From: a virus
IMG/VR virus record: IMGVR_UViG_3300034101_005931
Coordinates: 22,259 to 86,258 of that record
Direction: 5' to 3' (one strand)
Length of the DNA stretch: 64,000 nucleotides
Shown here piece by piece: positions 18,254 to 27,386 of this stretch (position 1 is the first letter of the stretch; each line of letters begins with the position of its first letter). The notes beneath the pieces were generated by a model, which saw nothing but the letters and a program-made list of their open reading frames with translations, made no database searches and was not told where the DNA came from. Position numbers and translations under genes: made by a program.

Positions 18254-18323
18254 ATGAATATTTATTAAACAGTTGCTATTTTTATAAATATCTCTATACT
18301 TACATTAAGTTCTTTAAAAATTT

Positions 18324-18776
18324 GGGGGTGTACTGGTTTCGACCTGAAACAGAAACTAAAAACGCATGTAGAGGTTGGTCAGCTGGCCTCTTAAAAAGCA
18401 GACCGAAAAATTAAGAGCAGATAATACTGACTCCATCTTGGCTGAAGCCGAGTACATATTCAACAACGCTTCCGAGTTTCTCGGAGAGGTTGAAGAAGAG
18501 TATCTCTTAGCAGCTTAAGGTCCTTTAACTCAGACCCTCTAAGAGTTAATTGATAACAGAGGAAGTTAGATTGTTGGTAGTTCTAATGTAACAACAAAAT
18601 ATCAACCGTATATAGATTGCGATAATGTCTATAGGCAGACTAAAAACTCGGTTAGTGTCACCAAGCAGCCTAAAGTCTTCGTTACCGTATGGTGGCTGAA
18701 ATGCTGAAGATACTAAAACATGTAGACCTTTTAGTCTATGGATTCAGGGACAGGGGTTCAACTCCCCTCATCTCCA
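18324..18776 (+). ncRNA. ssrA: tmRNA; tag ADNTDSILAEAEYIFNNASEFLGEVEEEYLLAA
   Basis: 5' GGGGGTGTACTGGTTTCGAC; 3' GACAGGGGTTCAACTCCCCTCATCTCCA; G3:U70; tag ORF 18417-18518 ending LAA. Confidence 0.95.
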
Positions 18777-18787
18777 CTTTTTAACTA

Positions 18788-23928: not shown

Positions 23929-24729
23929 ATGTACGGAAAACAGTATAATAGTGATTTAGAAGCTATTTATAACTATATGGTTCAACCTCAAGTTTTGTTG
24001 GAAAAATACTATAGTGATAAATTGCACGAGAGATTTTGGCAAAATAATGTTTTTGATTCTAATATACGAGAAAAACTATTACAGATTGCGAAAGATTTCT
24101 ATAATTCCTTTGATATTAATGTACCGGTAATAGATATACAACTAACAGGATCAATGGCTAATTACAATTATACGAAGTATTCAGATCTCGATGTTCATAT
24201 TATAATTGACTTTAAACAAATTAACCCCAACACTGATTTAGTTAAAAAAGCTTTAGACGGTGTTAGATTTATATGGAATTTGAGACACAATATAACTATG
24301 GGTGGTCATGATGTAGAATTTTATTTTCAAGATGTTAATGAGCAGCATACGGCTAGCGGTCTTTATAGCTTATTAAATGGAGAATGGATAAGAGAACCAA
24401 AGTATAGCCCACCTGAAATAGATGAACGCGATGTAAAGGTAAAATATGACGCTTATGTATCAGAAATAGAAAAACTTGCTAATAGAGTAAAAGCAAAAAA
24501 TCTTTCTCCTGAAGAGTATAAATCAATAACAGATCGCGCCTCTAAGTTGAAAGCAAAAATACATCAAGGAAGAAAAGATTGTTTATTAACAGGTAATGAA
24601 TTTTGTGTTGAAAACTTAGTATTTAAAGAATTAAGAAACTCTGATCTATTCGGTAAATTAATACAAATTGGTATTGACGCCTATGATAAGGCATATTCAG
24701 AAGACGAGCTTAATCGCCATGAATATTAA
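23929..24729 (+). CDS. Pol-beta-superfamily nucleotidyltransferase
   Basis: LTGSMANYNYTKYSDLDVHII; ENLVFKELR. Confidence 0.8.
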   Translation: MYGKQYNSDLEAIYNYMVQPQVLLEKYYSDKLHERFWQNNVFDSNIREKLLQIAKDFYNSFDINVPVIDIQLTGSMANYNYTKYSDLDVHIIIDFKQINPNTDLVKKALDGVRFIWNLRHNITMGGHDVEFYFQDVNEQHTASGLYSLLNGEWIREPKYSPPEIDERDVKVKYDAYVSEIEKLANRVKAKNLSPEEYKSITDRASKLKAKIHQGRKDCLLTGNEFCVENLVFKELRNSDLFGKLIQIGIDAYDKAYSEDELNRHEY

Positions 24730-25799: not shown

Positions 25800-25958
25800 T
25801 TATGAAAGCCGTGGTTGATTTCCACCTGTAGCAGCAGGAAGCATAGCTGTATTTGGCATCGATGCAGAGTCCTTTCTTACAGGCGTGAGTGTGCCCAAAA
25901 TTTCTTGTTTGCGCTTTTTTCTCTTAAGTTTTTTTAAATACTCTTTGAAAGACTGCAT
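25800..25958 (-). CDS. 52-aa basic protein with capsid-targeting-like N-terminus
   Basis: Hand-translated MQSFKEYLKKLKRKKRKQE... Confidence 0.55.
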   Translation of the reverse strand: MQSFKEYLKKLKRKKRKQEILGTLTPVRKDSASMPNTAMLPAATGGNQPRLS

Positions 25959-26137
25959 TATAGATACTTAGATTTTTTATGAAGAGATCTTAGCTTTCTT
26001 TTGCGTTTTAGTTGAGAATTTTCAAAAGTACGTCTTCTATAAACTTCTTCCATTGTTCCTTCAGTAAACAAGCGCGATTTGAGTCTCTTTAAAGTGTTGT
26101 CAATTGGTTCGTTATCTCGAACTCTTATTTCTATCAT
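25958..26137 (-). CDS. rpsU: ribosomal protein bS21 homolog
   Basis: Hand-translated MIEIRVRDNEPIDNTLKRLKSRLFTEGTMEEVYRRRTFENSQLKRKRKLRSLHKKSKYL. Confidence 0.85.
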   Translation of the reverse strand: MIEIRVRDNEPIDNTLKRLKSRLFTEGTMEEVYRRRTFENSQLKRKRKLRSLHKKSKYL

Positions 26138-26157
26138 AGATTATATACTTATACTTT

Positions 26158-26259
26158 TTAAGAATTCTTTTTATCATCTGTAAAGACAATAGAGAAGATA
26201 AAGAGACTGATAAACGTCGCGAATAAAGCAGTTAGTAATGCTGTAATTACTTTTATCAT
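26158..26259 (-). CDS. 33-aa membrane peptide
   Basis: MIKVITALLTALFATFISLFIFSIVFTDDKKNS. Confidence 0.5.
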   Translation of the reverse strand: MIKVITALLTALFATFISLFIFSIVFTDDKKNS

Positions 26260-26266
26260 AGGAAAA

Positions 26267-26840
26267 TTGGGTGTTTTATCGCAAATTGGACCATATCAGT
26301 TGCGTCTAACATGGCATCTAACTGACGGATATGCCCATTTAAGGGTTACATATAACGCATTTGTCAGTTATCAGAACACCTAACCTGTTGTAGTCTGAGT
26401 TTTTTAGTCACTATCGGACCATGGCTTTGTTCTTACTCAGCATAACCATTTCGCTCTATATTTTGGACCTCTGTTGAGGCTTATTCACAGTGGAACCATC
26501 TTAGATATCTCTAAGAAAGGAGGTAGAGTTGCATACCTTGTGTTAAGGTGATACGTTTTTATCGGGACGTCAAACACCATACCTTACCCGCATGTAGAAG
26601 CCAGGGCAAGTCACCCCTGCTTAGCCTAGATACCGACTCAACCCTCTCTAGGACTTCTTATATAGATCAGAGCTTATGACGCTGTTATTCTGATCTATGT
26701 CTTACAGATCCATCCTCATTTAATGCCGGTGCATGACTATGATGCGTTGGCCCGGATGGACTGCAGTTATTATTGAGCTAGGATTTGCCTTCCTTTGAGA
26801 GACTTATTTTAACGCATCGTCTTACTCAGTCTCAGCTCAA
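26267..26840 (-). ncRNA. large (~575 nt) structured ncRNA, family unassigned
   Basis: ORF-free, GC-richer island with many helices and a pseudoknot; own promoter and BoxA-like leader. Confidence 0.75.
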
Positions 26841-27077
26841 AAGGTTGTTAATTTTTCAAAGATCGTTTTTGATTATTTATAAAGTATATATTCTTTCTTA
26901 AGGAACTGCAATATTATTTTCTAGGAACGTAACTTTATAGTTTTGCTCTTCTTTCGGATAACAGTTGCGATATTTTTTAATATATGCTATAACTTCTTCC
27001 CATGTATTAAAAGGCGATAACATGACATCATACCAATAACCAGTAGAGGCAATCATTCTTTCAATTTTATACATGTT

Positions 27078-27386
27078 TTACAGTTCAATTGCGTTTTCGT
27101 TTTCAAACATGTCACGTTTAAAGTAGTAATCCTCTATTTGCTGCTCTGTGTAATCGATTTCACGCTCAATATCATCACGAGCATTATCAACAGCTTCACA
27201 AATAGGCTCTAAGGTATGACAAATAAACTTAAAATTAGTAAAATCACAAGCCCACGATACTTGTTCTTCAATTTTTGTACAGACCTCAAGCGCTTGTTTT
27301 AATTCTTTAATTTTTTTATTAGCCTGTATGAGATGGCAAGGATCATTATTCGAGGTCATCGTCTTCTTGGATACTGCCGGGTTCAT
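27078..27386 (-). CDS. hypothetical coiled-coil protein
   Basis: ORF in a minus-strand run. Confidence 0.55.
   Translation of the reverse strand: MNPAVSKKTMTSNNDPCHLIQANKKIKELKQALEVCTKIEEQVSWACDFTNFKFICHTLEPICEAVDNARDDIEREIDYTEQQIEDYYFKRDMFENENAIEL

What the first reader, a model, noticed from the sequence alone, without database searches (positions are those of the whole stretch)
26267..26840. ~575-nt ornate noncoding RNA upstream of bS21
Seen on the minus strand: a promoter TTGCAG-ttcc..TATACT with adjacent TATAAATA, a BoxA-like site, then ORF-free sequence. Helices include ttgagct/agctcaa, tccatcc/ggatgga, atagatcaga/tctgatctat, taactgac/gtcagtta and ggtgtt/aacacc. There is also an 8-bp pseudoknot gatgcgtt/aacgcatc (26811-26818 with 26741-26748) and a repeated ctgagtaaga (26820, 26431). 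Established: ROOL (~580 nt) and GOLLD (~800 nt) are large phage- and tRNA-associated RNAs of unknown function. Inference: a ROOL-like or new class; I cannot assign it by eye.
Basis: partly seen in the sequence, partly recalled or inferred. Interest (0 to 1): 0.75.

Follow-up and report, generated by a model that had tools for sequence, protein, structure and literature searches.

The report
Enlarged boxA-led ornate phage RNA
The gene-free stretch is a real gene for a roughly 600-base, intricately folded non-coding RNA of a lake-water phage: an enlarged version of a phage RNA family that matches no catalogued family, whose job is still unknown.

Summary
Window 26263-26876 (minus strand) has no ORF under any stop-codon reading, is G+C-enriched, and encodes a structured RNA. 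I found 8 other distinct homologues in 10 other loci (viral contigs, one metagenome contig, one MAG contig). They share a ~255-295-nt core. In the core, 96.7% of the cells of 38 modelled pairs are standard pairs, 16 pairs change on both sides, and 0 of 500 shuffles match this. All 9 begin with a boxA-like TTCTTTGAAAA; 4 of 9 end 4 nt before a tRNA-Met.

No Rfam 15 family matches (ROOL, GOLLD, OLE, RNase P and group I included). It is therefore a new class, not ROOL-like by descent.

The window carries a long form: two extra 5' domains (hairpin A, domain B) double its size. These are the best-conserved part of the locus (92-99% identity to L023; flanking genes 61-69%). Contigs from four RNA-library studies cover them.

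The bS21 link is confined to this lineage (2 of 9 copies; 0 of 5 short-form phage records encode bS21).

Function is unknown. Best guess: a stable trans-acting RNA made from an rRNA-style antiterminated unit. This scan had already met short forms of the family on other DNA.

The parts
26883..26911 (-). Promoter: -35 TTGCAG (26906-26911), 17-nt spacer, -10 TATACT (26883-26888)
   Evidence: Coordinates. 98.6% identical to L023 over promoter plus boxA (68 of 69). Same design as the promoter of this phage's tmRNA gene, TTGCTA-17-TATACT. The tool's consensus scan does not list it, because the -35 hexamer matches only 3 of 6.
26874..26881 (-). TATAAATA motif just downstream of the -10 box; the start of transcription is inferred at about 26876
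   Evidence: The motif is no more frequent in the window than chance (7 found, 8.8 expected), so a late-promoter role is not shown. The start site is inferred from the spacing alone.
26852..26863 (-). boxA-like element ATCTTTGAAAAA
   Evidence: A TCTTT[GA]A motif heads 9 of 9 distinct homologues. The same motif (TTCTTTAAAAA, 18310-18320) lies 3 nt before the tmRNA gene. That it resembles rrn boxA is my recollection of the consensus. Binding to Nus factors is untested.
26773..26842 (-). Hairpin A (add-on domain 1): outer stem UUGAGCU/AGCUCAA, inner stem GAGAC/GUCUC, large loop with GUAAGA and GAUGCGUUAAAA, side hairpin GGA..UCC
   Evidence: Present in W, L023 and L183 (3 of 9). 97.1% identical to L023. 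The inner stem changes C-G to U-A in L183. Covered by RNA-library contigs in X19 and X24.
26597..26766 (-). Domain B (add-on domain 2): five helices, including UCCAUCC/GGAUGGA, GCC/GGC, GCAU/AUGC, AUAGAUCAGA/UCUGAUCUAU, CCUAGA/UCUAGG and CAGGGG/CCCUG
   Evidence: Present in W, L023 and L048 (3 of 9). 92.4% identical to L023. Compensatory changes at alignment columns 23/35, 119/142 and 120/141. In an X19 contig, 26758 changes with 26711 and 26749 with 26727. Covered by contigs of 4 of 4 RNA runs laid.
26540..26596 (-). Linker and variable hairpin Pa (GGUG..CACC, 26547-26581)
   Evidence: Only 40% identical to L023. A different hairpin occupies this place in each lineage and it is absent in L183. 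RNA-library contigs replace it with 62-66 other letters (table 5).
26263..26539 (-). Conserved core shared by the whole family: Pb 26521-26538, Pc 26499-26516, junction GGUUCCACUGUGAAUAAG 26480-26497, Pd 26468-26479, AGAGCG 26452-26457, PK1 26444-26449 with 26421-26426, Pe 26435-26440 with 26395-26400, Pe2 26406-26420, GGUUAGGUGUUCUGA 26371-26385, Pf 26319-26370, Pg 26290-26315, tail UGCGAUAAAACACC 26270-26283, AAUUUU 26263-26268
   Evidence: Matches model R1 at 173.8 bits, E 1e-45 (the model includes this sequence). Independent of R1, nhmmer with the window sequence alone finds L035, L034 and L033 at E 2e-16 to 1e-12. Pair counts; alignment-free folds; coordinates.
26158..26259 (-). 33-aa hydrophobic micropeptide ORF, starting 4 nt after the RNA's conserved 3' end
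   Evidence: ORF. L023 has a 34-aa counterpart in the same position (11 of 34 identical; both are a hydrophobic stretch followed by DDK). No terminator-like site lies between the RNA and this ORF. Whether it is translated is not shown.
25958..26137 (-). Phage ribosomal protein bS21 gene (59 aa)
   Evidence: Pfam PF01165, E 4.4e-13, 49.2 bits against a cut-off of 27. Relatives 67-98% identical exist. L023 has it in the same position at 71% identity.

Best explanation
Window ~26876-26263 (minus strand) is a gene for a stable, untranslated, elaborately folded RNA of about 600 nt.

Shown:
- It is the long form of a phage RNA family with a conserved ~255-295-nt core: hairpins Pb, Pc, Pf and Pg, a closing helix GGUGUU/AACACC, and a probable H-type pseudoknot PK1/Pe.
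- The core's junction sequences are invariant.
- Peripheral domains come and go between lineages.
- This window adds hairpin A and the five-helix domain B. These are the most conserved part of the locus.

Inferred mechanism of production:
- A sigma-70-type promoter of the same design as the phage's tmRNA promoter starts transcription.
- The boxA-like element at the 5' end recruits the host NusB/NusE antitermination complex. This carries polymerase through a long untranslated, Rho-exposed RNA, as in rRNA operons.
- The RNA folds as it is transcribed and is then cut away from what follows. In 4 of 9 relatives that is a tRNA-Met, so RNase P would make the 3' end. Here it is the micropeptide-bS21 message.

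Inferred action (about 0.35 of my belief within this explanation): the invariant single-stranded junctions and loops form a binding surface, and the RNA acts in trans on the host or phage translation or RNA-processing machinery. It would act as a scaffold or decoy, like the phage-borne, tRNA-island-associated GOLLD and ROOL RNAs, rather than as a cis regulator. In this lineage the add-on domains may serve a lineage-specific partner.
For: Non-coding:
- All three stop types occur at least twice in all six frames.
- G+C is raised.

Homologues:
- L023 at E 5e-98.
- L033-L035, L048 and L052, L061 = L064 = L067, L183.
- Model R1 finds exactly these 11 loci (the window included), and nothing else at or below E 0.01, in 1.76 Mb held.

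Structure:
- 96.7% of 338 cells are paired, against 33.8-47.9% when the 3' partners are slid.
- 16 of 38 pairs change on both sides; 0 of 500 shuffles are as high on all five measures.
- About 38 G-U or U-G cells would be A-C mismatches on the other strand, which fixes the strand.

Alignment-free folds:
- Pf forms in 9 of 9 copies, with 8 different stems, flush to the invariant anchors.
- Pg forms in 9 of 9.
- The Pc closing helix forms in 7 of 9; Pd in 6 of 9.

Modularity: hairpin A is in W, L023 and L183; domain B is in W, L023 and L048.

Constraint: promoter plus boxA 98.6%, hairpin A 97.1% and domain B 92.4% identical to L023, against 61-69% for the three neighbouring genes.

Expression signals:
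- A boxA-like motif heads 9 of 9 copies.
- The same promoter and motif design precedes the tmRNA gene.
- A tRNA-Met follows 4 nt after the RNA in L036, L037, L038 and L052.

RNA libraries: contigs of 4 of 4 runs laid (4 studies) cover parts of 26387-26841. One contig carries two pair-preserving double changes, 26758/26711 and 26749/26727.

Established knowledge:
- boxA is necessary and sufficient to form the rrn antitermination complex (PMC10250234, passages).
- GOLLD and ROOL are phage or prophage RNAs near tRNA islands, of unknown function (10.1101/2024.12.08.627333, passages).
Against: - Nothing here shows function.
- Contigs from RNA libraries can contain DNA and give neither strand nor ends (tool caveat).
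- Only 9 distinct sequences are available, and the pair counts were made on an alignment fitted to the model.
- The closing helix and Pb never vary, so they are untested.
- The terminal leader-tail helix P1 that I proposed is no better than shuffled leaders (z -0.37 to +1.22).
- PK1 and Pe have only modest permutation support (83 and 290 of 5000 permutations as good).
- The boxA-like motif is not enriched in the window as a whole (5 found, 5.4 expected), and its likeness to rrn boxA is recalled, not computed.
- No terminator separates the RNA from the micropeptide ORF, which starts 4 nt later. In this phage the RNA is therefore physically the 5' part of an mRNA precursor unless it is cleaved off.
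- The very sharp edges of the 92-99% identity block could reflect a recent recombination of a cassette rather than selection.
Confidence: 0.72

Rival explanations
1. Structured 5' leader. In this phage the RNA is a cis-acting untranslated leader that controls translation or stability of the micropeptide-bS21 message that starts 4 nt downstream, not an independent RNA.
For: - No terminator-like site lies between the RNA and ORF33.
- The arrangement RNA, micropeptide, bS21 is kept in L023.
Against: - The same core precedes a tRNA-Met in 4 of 9 copies, a new promoter and an unrelated ORF in L064, and other ORFs in L048 and L183. A leader would not keep its sequence while its gene changes.
- It carries its own promoter and a boxA-like site of the tmRNA-gene type.
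- About 600 nt, with invariant junctions and pseudoknot-type pairings, is far beyond known translational operators.
Confidence: 0.1
2. bS21-linked ribonucleoprotein. The add-on domains (hairpin A and domain B) are a docking platform for the phage bS21, and perhaps the membrane micropeptide. This would make the long form an OLE-like RNP that stores, delivers or sequesters bS21.
For: - Both add-on domains together occur only in the 2 copies that have bS21 next door (W, L023).
- 0 of 5 short-form phage records encode bS21, 3 of them complete genomes.
- The add-on domains are the most conserved part of the locus.
- Precedent: OLE RNA (about 600 nt) is proposed to sequester RpsU (= bS21) and works with the membrane protein OapA (10.1101/2024.12.08.627333, passages).
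Against: - n = 2.
- L048 has domain B but no bS21 in its 32-kb record, which is only 16% complete.
- There is no sequence or Rfam similarity to OLE.
- Adjacency in a mosaic phage genome is weak evidence.
Confidence: 0.1
3. A known RNA diverged beyond recognition (RNase P RNA, a group I or ORF-less group II intron, a tmRNA-derived piece, ROOL or GOLLD).
For: - Its size, its pseudoknots and its place among tRNA and tmRNA genes would suit RNase P RNA or an intron.
- By eye, some blocks faintly recall group I R/S elements and the RNase P P4 strands (my reading, not a tool result).
Against: - Rfam 15 gives nothing on the long form at E <= 10 or on the short forms at E <= 5. The same searches found tmRNA at 85-141 bits and a group I intron at 83 bits in the same loci, so the method works on these phages.
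- The flanks are not split exons: the tRNA-Met is intact.
- The P4-like pairing I considered conflicts with helix UCCAUCC/GGAUGGA, which has compensatory support.
Confidence: 0.05
4. A conserved but non-functional or selfish DNA cassette. The high identity would reflect recent horizontal spread of a mobile intergenic segment rather than a working RNA.
For: - The identity block has sharp edges: 61% rises to 98.6% at the ORF58 stop, and 92% falls to 40% at Pa.
- Modules are present or absent in different lineages.
- The family occurs in differing genomic contexts.
Against: - Compensatory changes preserve helices across nine lineages, which selection on DNA alone does not explain.
- G-U pairs are strand-specific.
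- Contigs from RNA libraries of four studies cover it.
- No recombinase, repeats or target duplications were seen next to it.
Confidence: 0.03

Closest known systems
GOLLD and ROOL RNAs (large ornate RNAs of phages and prophages)
   Same: - Large (ROOL about 580 nt, GOLLD often over 800 nt), multi-pseudoknotted and non-coding.
- Carried by phages or prophages, often beside tRNA genes; function unknown (10.1101/2024.12.08.627333, passages).
- Modular peripheral domains around a conserved part.
- This RNA also sits among tRNA and tmRNA genes, and in 4 of 9 relatives it abuts a tRNA.
   Different: - No sequence or structure match to either Rfam model, even at E <= 10.
- Begins with a boxA-like element.
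- The core is only about 255-295 nt.
- No evidence here for homo-oligomers. The one self-complementary loop candidate, GCGC in the Pg loop, is ACGC in this window and in L183.
OLE RNA ribonucleoprotein (OLE with OapA, OapB, OapC and RpsU)
   Same: - About 600 nt and ornate.
- Proposed to sequester ribosomal protein RpsU (= bS21) and to work with a membrane protein.
- Here a ~600-nt RNA is followed by a membrane-type micropeptide gene and a bS21 gene.
   Different: - No Rfam OLE match.
- OLE is chromosomal in anaerobic or extremophilic Firmicutes (recalled); this RNA is in lake-water phages.
- Binding to bS21 is untested.
- The micropeptide (33 aa) is not OapA.
rRNA-operon leader design (boxA antitermination site; mature RNA excised together with tRNAs)
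   Same: A strong promoter, then a boxA-like sequence within about 25 nt, then a long untranslated structured RNA, then a tRNA in several relatives. boxA is the key element for the antitermination complex (PMC10250234, passages).
   Different: - The product is not rRNA (no SSU, LSU or 5S match).
- A leader-trailer helix is not supported.
- Nus-factor dependence is inferred only.
Stable RNAs of the phage T4 tRNA region (species 1 and 2, RNA C and D) - recalled, not from a call
   Same: Phage-encoded stable RNAs of unknown function, co-transcribed with tRNAs and released by tRNA-processing enzymes.
   Different: They are about 120-140 nt (recalled). No homology was tested here, because no sequence was available to me from a tool.
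Short forms of the same family noted earlier by this scan (e1-5318484, e1-5351009, e1-5785019, e1-5391251)
   Same: boxA-like start, pseudoknotted core, a tRNA-Met downstream in some, freshwater phages. My L036, L037, L038, L052 and L064 copies fit those descriptions.
   Different: The window's copy is about 250 nt longer, through hairpin A and domain B. It is followed by a micropeptide and bS21 instead of a tRNA.

Membership tests
ROOL RNA (Rfam; accession RF03087 recalled) | Match to the family covariance model at or above its gathering score | tested here: not met
   No match at gathering score in the whole window. None at E <= 10 in 26100-27000 with permissive filters. None on the short forms at E <= 5.
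ROOL RNA (Rfam; accession RF03087 recalled) | Phage or prophage location, often near tRNA islands; about 580 nt | tested here: met
   Viral record. 21 tRNAs and a tmRNA in the window. Length about 600 nt. This is context, not homology.
GOLLD RNA (Rfam) | Match to the family covariance model, including the universally conserved 3' region | tested here: not met
   no GOLLD match in the window or in L023, L036, L037, L038, L048, L052, L064 or L183.
OLE RNA (Rfam) | Match to the family covariance model | tested here: not met
OLE RNA (Rfam) | Binding of RpsU/bS21 and of a membrane protein partner | not testable with these tools
   Only gene adjacency is seen. No RNA-protein prediction tool is on hand.
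RNase P RNA | Match to any RNase P model; P4 helix with conserved strands | tested here: not met
   No match. The P4-like pairing I considered by eye conflicts with a helix that has compensatory support.
Group I intron | Match to the intron model; insertion within a host gene whose exons flank it | tested here: not met
   No match on the element, while RF00028 scored 83.3 bits elsewhere in L037 as a positive control. The downstream tRNA-Met is intact. The flanking ORFs are complete.
boxA-led antiterminated stable-RNA unit (rrn type) | boxA-like sequence shortly after the promoter, conserved among homologues | tested here: met
   TCTTT[GA]A-type motif in 9 of 9 copies. The same motif and promoter design lie in front of the phage tmRNA. 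Likeness to the rrn boxA consensus is recalled.
boxA-led antiterminated stable-RNA unit (rrn type) | NusB/NusE binding and Rho-resistant transcription | not testable with these tools
   Needs biochemistry or reporter assays.
boxA-led antiterminated stable-RNA unit (rrn type) | Leader-trailer helix bracketing the mature RNA | tested here: not met
   Leader-tail duplex energies are no better than shuffled leaders in 9 of 9 copies. Only an anecdotal C-G / U-G / U-A series at one position supports it.
The unnamed phage RNA family defined here (model R1) | Conserved core blocks and helices Pb, Pc, Pf, Pg and the closing helix | tested here: met
   Window 26263-26539 scores 173.8 bits (the model includes it). 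nhmmer with the window alone finds L033-L035 at E 1e-12 to 2e-16. Pair counts.

The most novel reading that the evidence does not exclude
The window holds the enlarged form of a new class of large ornate phage RNA that is unrelated to GOLLD, ROOL or OLE. Its two add-on domains are the most strongly conserved 240 nt of the locus. They may have been acquired as a docking platform for the phage's own ribosomal protein bS21 and the adjacent membrane micropeptide. That would give a phage RNA-protein particle which, like OLE with RpsU, controls how much bS21 reaches host ribosomes during takeover of translation.
Probability: 0.1. Interest if true: 0.85.

Novelty: new variant of a known kind. Interest (0 to 1): 0.62.

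Why it matters
Large ornate bacterial and phage RNAs (GOLLD, ROOL, OLE, raiA) are among the least understood RNA classes. Two of them were recently found to form RNA-only cages, and no function is known for either.

This locus adds a further class with three useful handles:
1. A fixed core with optional domains, so natural 'deletion series' exist: minimal forms of about 310 nt up to about 600 nt.
2. rRNA-style expression signals shared with the phage tmRNA gene. This suggests how phages protect long untranslated RNAs from Rho.
3. In this lineage, direct adjacency to a phage bS21 gene. This turns a vague 'translation-related' guess into a binding experiment that can be done with an in-vitro transcript and one small protein.

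It also shows that about 1% of this phage fragment, previously blank, is a gene.

Tried and rejected
- **Recoded or broken gene:** rejected. All three stop types occur in every frame.
- **GenBank phages:** blastn in 'distant' mode found no match for the window RNA or for the L038 short form at E <= 1.
- **Synteny through neighbours:**
  - bS21 alone found no viral locus.
  - The AAA ATPase and the nucleotidyltransferase gave 21 viral loci. None has the RNA or a comparable gap.
  - The whole records of five of them (G004-G008) have no significant match. All are fragments.
- **Pattern scans:** most matches were chance. 4 of 9 stretches were true, 4 of 5, 7 of 25, and among the stretches only already-known members. 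This was judged by nhmmer and model R1.
- **Terminal helix P1:** rejected as unsupported.
- **TATAAATA as a late promoter:** not enriched.
- **Overall boxA motif enrichment:** none. Only its placement before the two RNA genes is notable.
- **T4-type capsid family search (PF07068):** nothing rang anywhere, controls included, so it is uninformative. I do not call these phages T4-like.
- **bS21 copies in the MAG behind L183:** at most 45% identical to the window's, and none lies next to the RNA. This gives no information on the link.
- **Self-complementary kissing loop:** GCGC in the Pg loop is present in 7 of 9 copies but is ACGC in W and L183. UGCA in the Pb loop is lost in L048. No palindrome-switching covariation was seen.
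- **Hairpin A repeat:** the CUGAGU copy in hairpin A does not covary with the Pe 3' strand in L023 or L183, so it is not an alternative partner.
- **Cover in RNA libraries:** no contig of the four RNA runs lay on 25900-26386 or 26842-27100.
- **X19 contig end:** one X19 contig ends about 5 nt beyond 26841 and runs into adapter sequence. This is a single weak hint of a processed 5' end and is not used.
- **Single-sequence fold z-scores** (-1.74 and -2.18) do not discriminate strand or structure.
- **Literature searches:** 'GOLLD' + 'ROOL'; boxA / bacteriophage / noncoding RNA / tRNA / antitermination / structured RNA; phage / novel structured RNA / tRNA / covariation / metagenom / tmRNA. None showed a description of this RNA in its listings.
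Full report
**What is there.** The window is part of an 86-kb viral record judged 39% complete. It carries 21 tRNA genes and a tmRNA. Between a 58-aa ORF (26898-27074, minus) and a 33-aa ORF (26158-26259, minus) lie about 640 nt with no ORF of 60 aa or more. Every frame on both strands holds at least two each of TAA, TAG and TGA, so no stop-codon reassignment makes it coding. G+C rises to 0.44-0.465 against about 0.30-0.35 around it. The gene downstream is a phage bS21 (PF01165, E 4e-13).

**Known families.** Rfam 15 has no match at gathering score. With permissive filters on 26100-27000, the only match is a spurious snoRNA at E = 8 on the other strand. The same library, run on relatives' loci, found tmRNA (85-141 bits), tRNAs and a group I intron (83 bits), but nothing on the element. 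The tool therefore works on these phages, and the element is not ROOL, GOLLD, OLE, RNase P, a group I or II intron, or tmRNA by that test.

**Homologues.**
- Neighbouring-gene synteny in the viral collection led nowhere.
- The phage bS21 has six close relatives in the protein database.
- A metagenome scan with the bS21 alignment returned L023, where a 71%-identical bS21 is preceded by the same RNA (nhmmer E 5e-98).
- Blocks conserved between the two were then used as DNA patterns. These yielded L033-L035 (widened as L036-L038 = records G001-G003), L048, L052, the identical L061/L064/L067, and L183 on a 3.1-kb contig binned in a Melainabacteria MAG.
- A covariance model of the core (R1), searched over the window and all 1.76 Mb of loci held, found exactly these 11 loci (9 distinct sequences, the window included) at E <= 1e-45. 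Nothing else scored better than E 0.037. The window has one copy.

**Architecture.** All copies share a core of about 255-295 nt (window 26263-26539). The core contains:
- hairpin Pb, with an invariant 8-nt loop;
- helix Pc, closing a variable insert;
- an invariant junction GGUUCCACNGUGAAUAAG;
- an optional hairpin Pd;
- an A-rich strand ending in AGAGCG;
- a segment in which GGUU/AACC (PK1) crosses CUNNGU/ACNNNN (Pe), an H-type pseudoknot arrangement, around the small hairpin Pe2;
- the invariant GGUUAGGUGUUCUGA;
- hairpin Pf;
- the 10-bp hairpin Pg, with loop RCGCAA;
- a tail UGCGAUAAAA(A)CACC, whose AACACC closes the 3' domain by pairing with GGUGUU.

Peripheral parts differ between copies:
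- L064 is minimal (about 310 nt).
- L036, L037, L038 and L052 add a small 5' hairpin (about 350 nt).
- L183 has hairpin A but no domain B and no Pa.
- L048 has domain B but no hairpin A.
- W and L023 have both (583-600 nt from the boxA-like motif).

**Evidence for structure.**
- *Alignment-free.* I cut each sequence at the invariant anchors and folded each variable segment alone. Pf is a hairpin flush to its anchors in 9 of 9 copies, with eight different stem sequences. Pg forms in 9 of 9. The Pc closing helix forms in 7 of 9 (in L037 and L038 the inner hairpins win). Pd forms in 6 of 9.
- *Model-based alignment A5.* 96.7% of 338 cells are standard pairs, against 33.8-47.9% when the 3' partners are slid by 1-3 columns. 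16 of 38 pairs change on both sides (48 cells). None of 500 shuffles reaches the observed value on any of the five measures. That alignment was fitted to the model, so it leans towards the structure. The anchor-based folds are the independent check.
- *Strand.* About 38 cells are G-U or U-G, which would be A-C mismatches on the opposite strand. Together with the promoter, the boxA-like motif and the co-oriented tRNA, this fixes the strand as minus in the window.
- *Untested or weak.* Pb and the closing helix never vary and so remain untested. PK1 (45 of 54 cells paired; 83 of 5000 permutations as good) and Pe (41 of 54; 290 of 5000) have modest support. Pe does show G-C to A-U switches at two positions. 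A terminal leader-tail helix that I proposed is not supported.

**The long-form extension.**
- Domain B folds into five helices in W, L023 and L048, with pair-preserving double changes at three positions.
- An RNA-library contig (X19) adds two more such double changes, 26758 with 26711 and 26749 with 26727.
- Hairpin A's inner stem changes C-G to U-A in L183.
- Between W and L023, nucleotide identity is 98.6% over promoter plus boxA, 97.1% over hairpin A and 92.4% over domain B. It is 40% over Pa and 68.8% over the core. It is 61%, 61% and 69% over the ORF58, ORF33 and bS21 genes.
- The extension is therefore the most constrained part of the locus, or a recently exchanged cassette. Contigs from four RNA-library studies are 85-99% alike over it while replacing Pa with unrelated letters. 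That argues for constraint across several lineages.

The strand gatgcgtt lies in the hairpin A loop and aacgcatc lies in domain B. L183 keeps the first strand without the second, and L048 keeps the second without the first. In L023 the single change in aacgcatc is compensated within a local hairpin (GCAU-CAUAGUC-AUGC becomes GUAU-...-AUAC). The A-to-C change at 26747 in L048 and in three RNA-library runs has no listed partner change at 26812 in the one contig that covers both. Six of the eight pairs could still form, so the pseudoknot is not excluded, but nothing supports it.

**Expression signals.**
- Nine of nine copies start with a TCTTT[GA]A-type motif a few nucleotides after a promoter. 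The short forms have consensus TTGACA-17-TATAAA. The window has TTGCAG-17-TATACT.
- The window's tmRNA gene has the same layout: TTGCTA-17-TATACT, 9 nt, TTCTTTAAAAA, 3 nt, then the tmRNA 5' end.
- The motif is not enriched in the window overall (5 found, 5.4 expected), but 2 of the 5 matches head the two large untranslated RNA genes.
- From memory, the motif resembles the boxA of rRNA operons. boxA is necessary and sufficient to assemble the Nus-factor antitermination complex (PMC10250234, passages).
- In L036, L037, L038 and L052 a tRNA-Met gene begins 4 nt after the RNA, so RNase P would define the 3' end there.
- In the window and L023, a hydrophobic micropeptide ORF begins 3-4 nt after the RNA, with no terminator between.
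- A tmRNA gene lies within about 1 kb in 3 of the 5 loci scanned (L036, L037, L052).

**Transcription.** Six RNA runs held a small share of the stretch's words. I laid four of them, one from each of four studies, and all four have contigs (88-422 nt) on parts of 26387-26841. These are contigs. They show presence in an RNA library, not strand, ends or level, and DNA carry-over cannot be excluded.

**bS21.** The adjacency is real but confined to this lineage. 2 of 9 copies have bS21 downstream. 0 of 5 short-form phage records encode a bS21, three of them complete. The record of L048 (16% complete) has none. Both add-on domains together occur only in the two bS21-linked copies. With n = 2 this is a lead, not a result. 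It is made more interesting by the published proposal that OLE RNA sequesters RpsU (= bS21) and works with a membrane protein (10.1101/2024.12.08.627333, passages).

**Earlier notes and novelty.**
- Earlier notes of this scan had already met short forms of this family in other phage genomes. They called it a new pseudoknotted family with a boxA start, often before tRNA-Met. My independent searches agree.
- One note read a short form as a leader of a micropeptide gene. The changing downstream genes argue against that as the general function.
- One note mentions sister phages with GOLLD in the same unit. I found no GOLLD in my loci.
- Three literature searches showed no description of this RNA in their listings. 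The large IMG/VR survey lists only motifs of 29-151 nt, and its supplements could not be seen.

**Verdict.** This is a real, newly recognised class of large structured phage RNA. The window carries its largest known form. Production by an rRNA-style antiterminated unit is well supported by design, though not by experiment. What the RNA does is unknown.

Noticed in passing
window 18266-18779 (+): The phage tmRNA gene (Rfam 121 bits) has the same promoter and boxA-like design as the new RNA: TTGCTA, 17 nt, TATACT, 9 nt, TTCTTTAAAAA, 3 nt, then the tmRNA 5' end. A TATAAATA lies inside the spacer.
   Followed up: partly
L037:2154-2799 (+) (record G002): The tmRNA match (85 bits, lower than the 134-141 bits in sister phages) ends at 2576. 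A group I intron match (RF00028, 83 bits) starts at 2565. The tmRNA gene of this phage may be interrupted or abutted by a group I intron.
   Followed up: no
L037:1181-1270 (-) compared with L036:1790-1864 and L038:1758-1832: The tRNA-Met(CAT) that follows the RNA is 75 nt in three phages. In G002 it is a different, 90-nt tRNA with a long extra arm, so the tRNA behind the RNA has been swapped. In G002 a 277-aa ORF on the other strand is inserted just beyond it.
   Followed up: no
window 26158-26259 (-) and L023:995-1099 (+): A conserved micropeptide gene (33 and 34 aa) encodes a hydrophobic helix followed by DDK. Only 11 of 34 residues are identical, but the place and shape are the same, directly between the RNA and bS21.
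   Followed up: partly
window 26597-26911 compared with L023:360-674: A block of about 310 nt (promoter, boxA-like motif, hairpin A, domain B) is 92-99% identical between two phages whose flanking genes are 61-69% identical. The block has sharp edges at the ORF58 stop and at hairpin Pa. This is either cassette-like exchange or very strong selection.
   Followed up: partly
L183 (3.1-kb contig of a MAG labelled Melainabacteria): A copy of the phage RNA sits on a short contig binned into a bacterial MAG. This is either a mis-binned phage contig or a hint at the host. The MAG's own bS21 genes are unrelated to the phage type.
   Followed up: partly
window 26811-26827 and 26270-26283 (-): The hairpin A loop (UGCGUUAAAA) nearly repeats the core's 3' tail (UGCGAUAAAA). 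Both can pair with the CGCA of the Pg loop, so the add-on hairpin may mimic or compete with a core tertiary contact. Untested.
   Followed up: no
window 23929-24729 (+): A 266-aa nucleotidyltransferase-fold protein (weak Pfam NTP_transf_2 / poly(A)-polymerase-like matches) lies 1.5 kb from the RNA. It has relatives in 20 viral loci, and none of those loci carries the RNA.
   Followed up: partly
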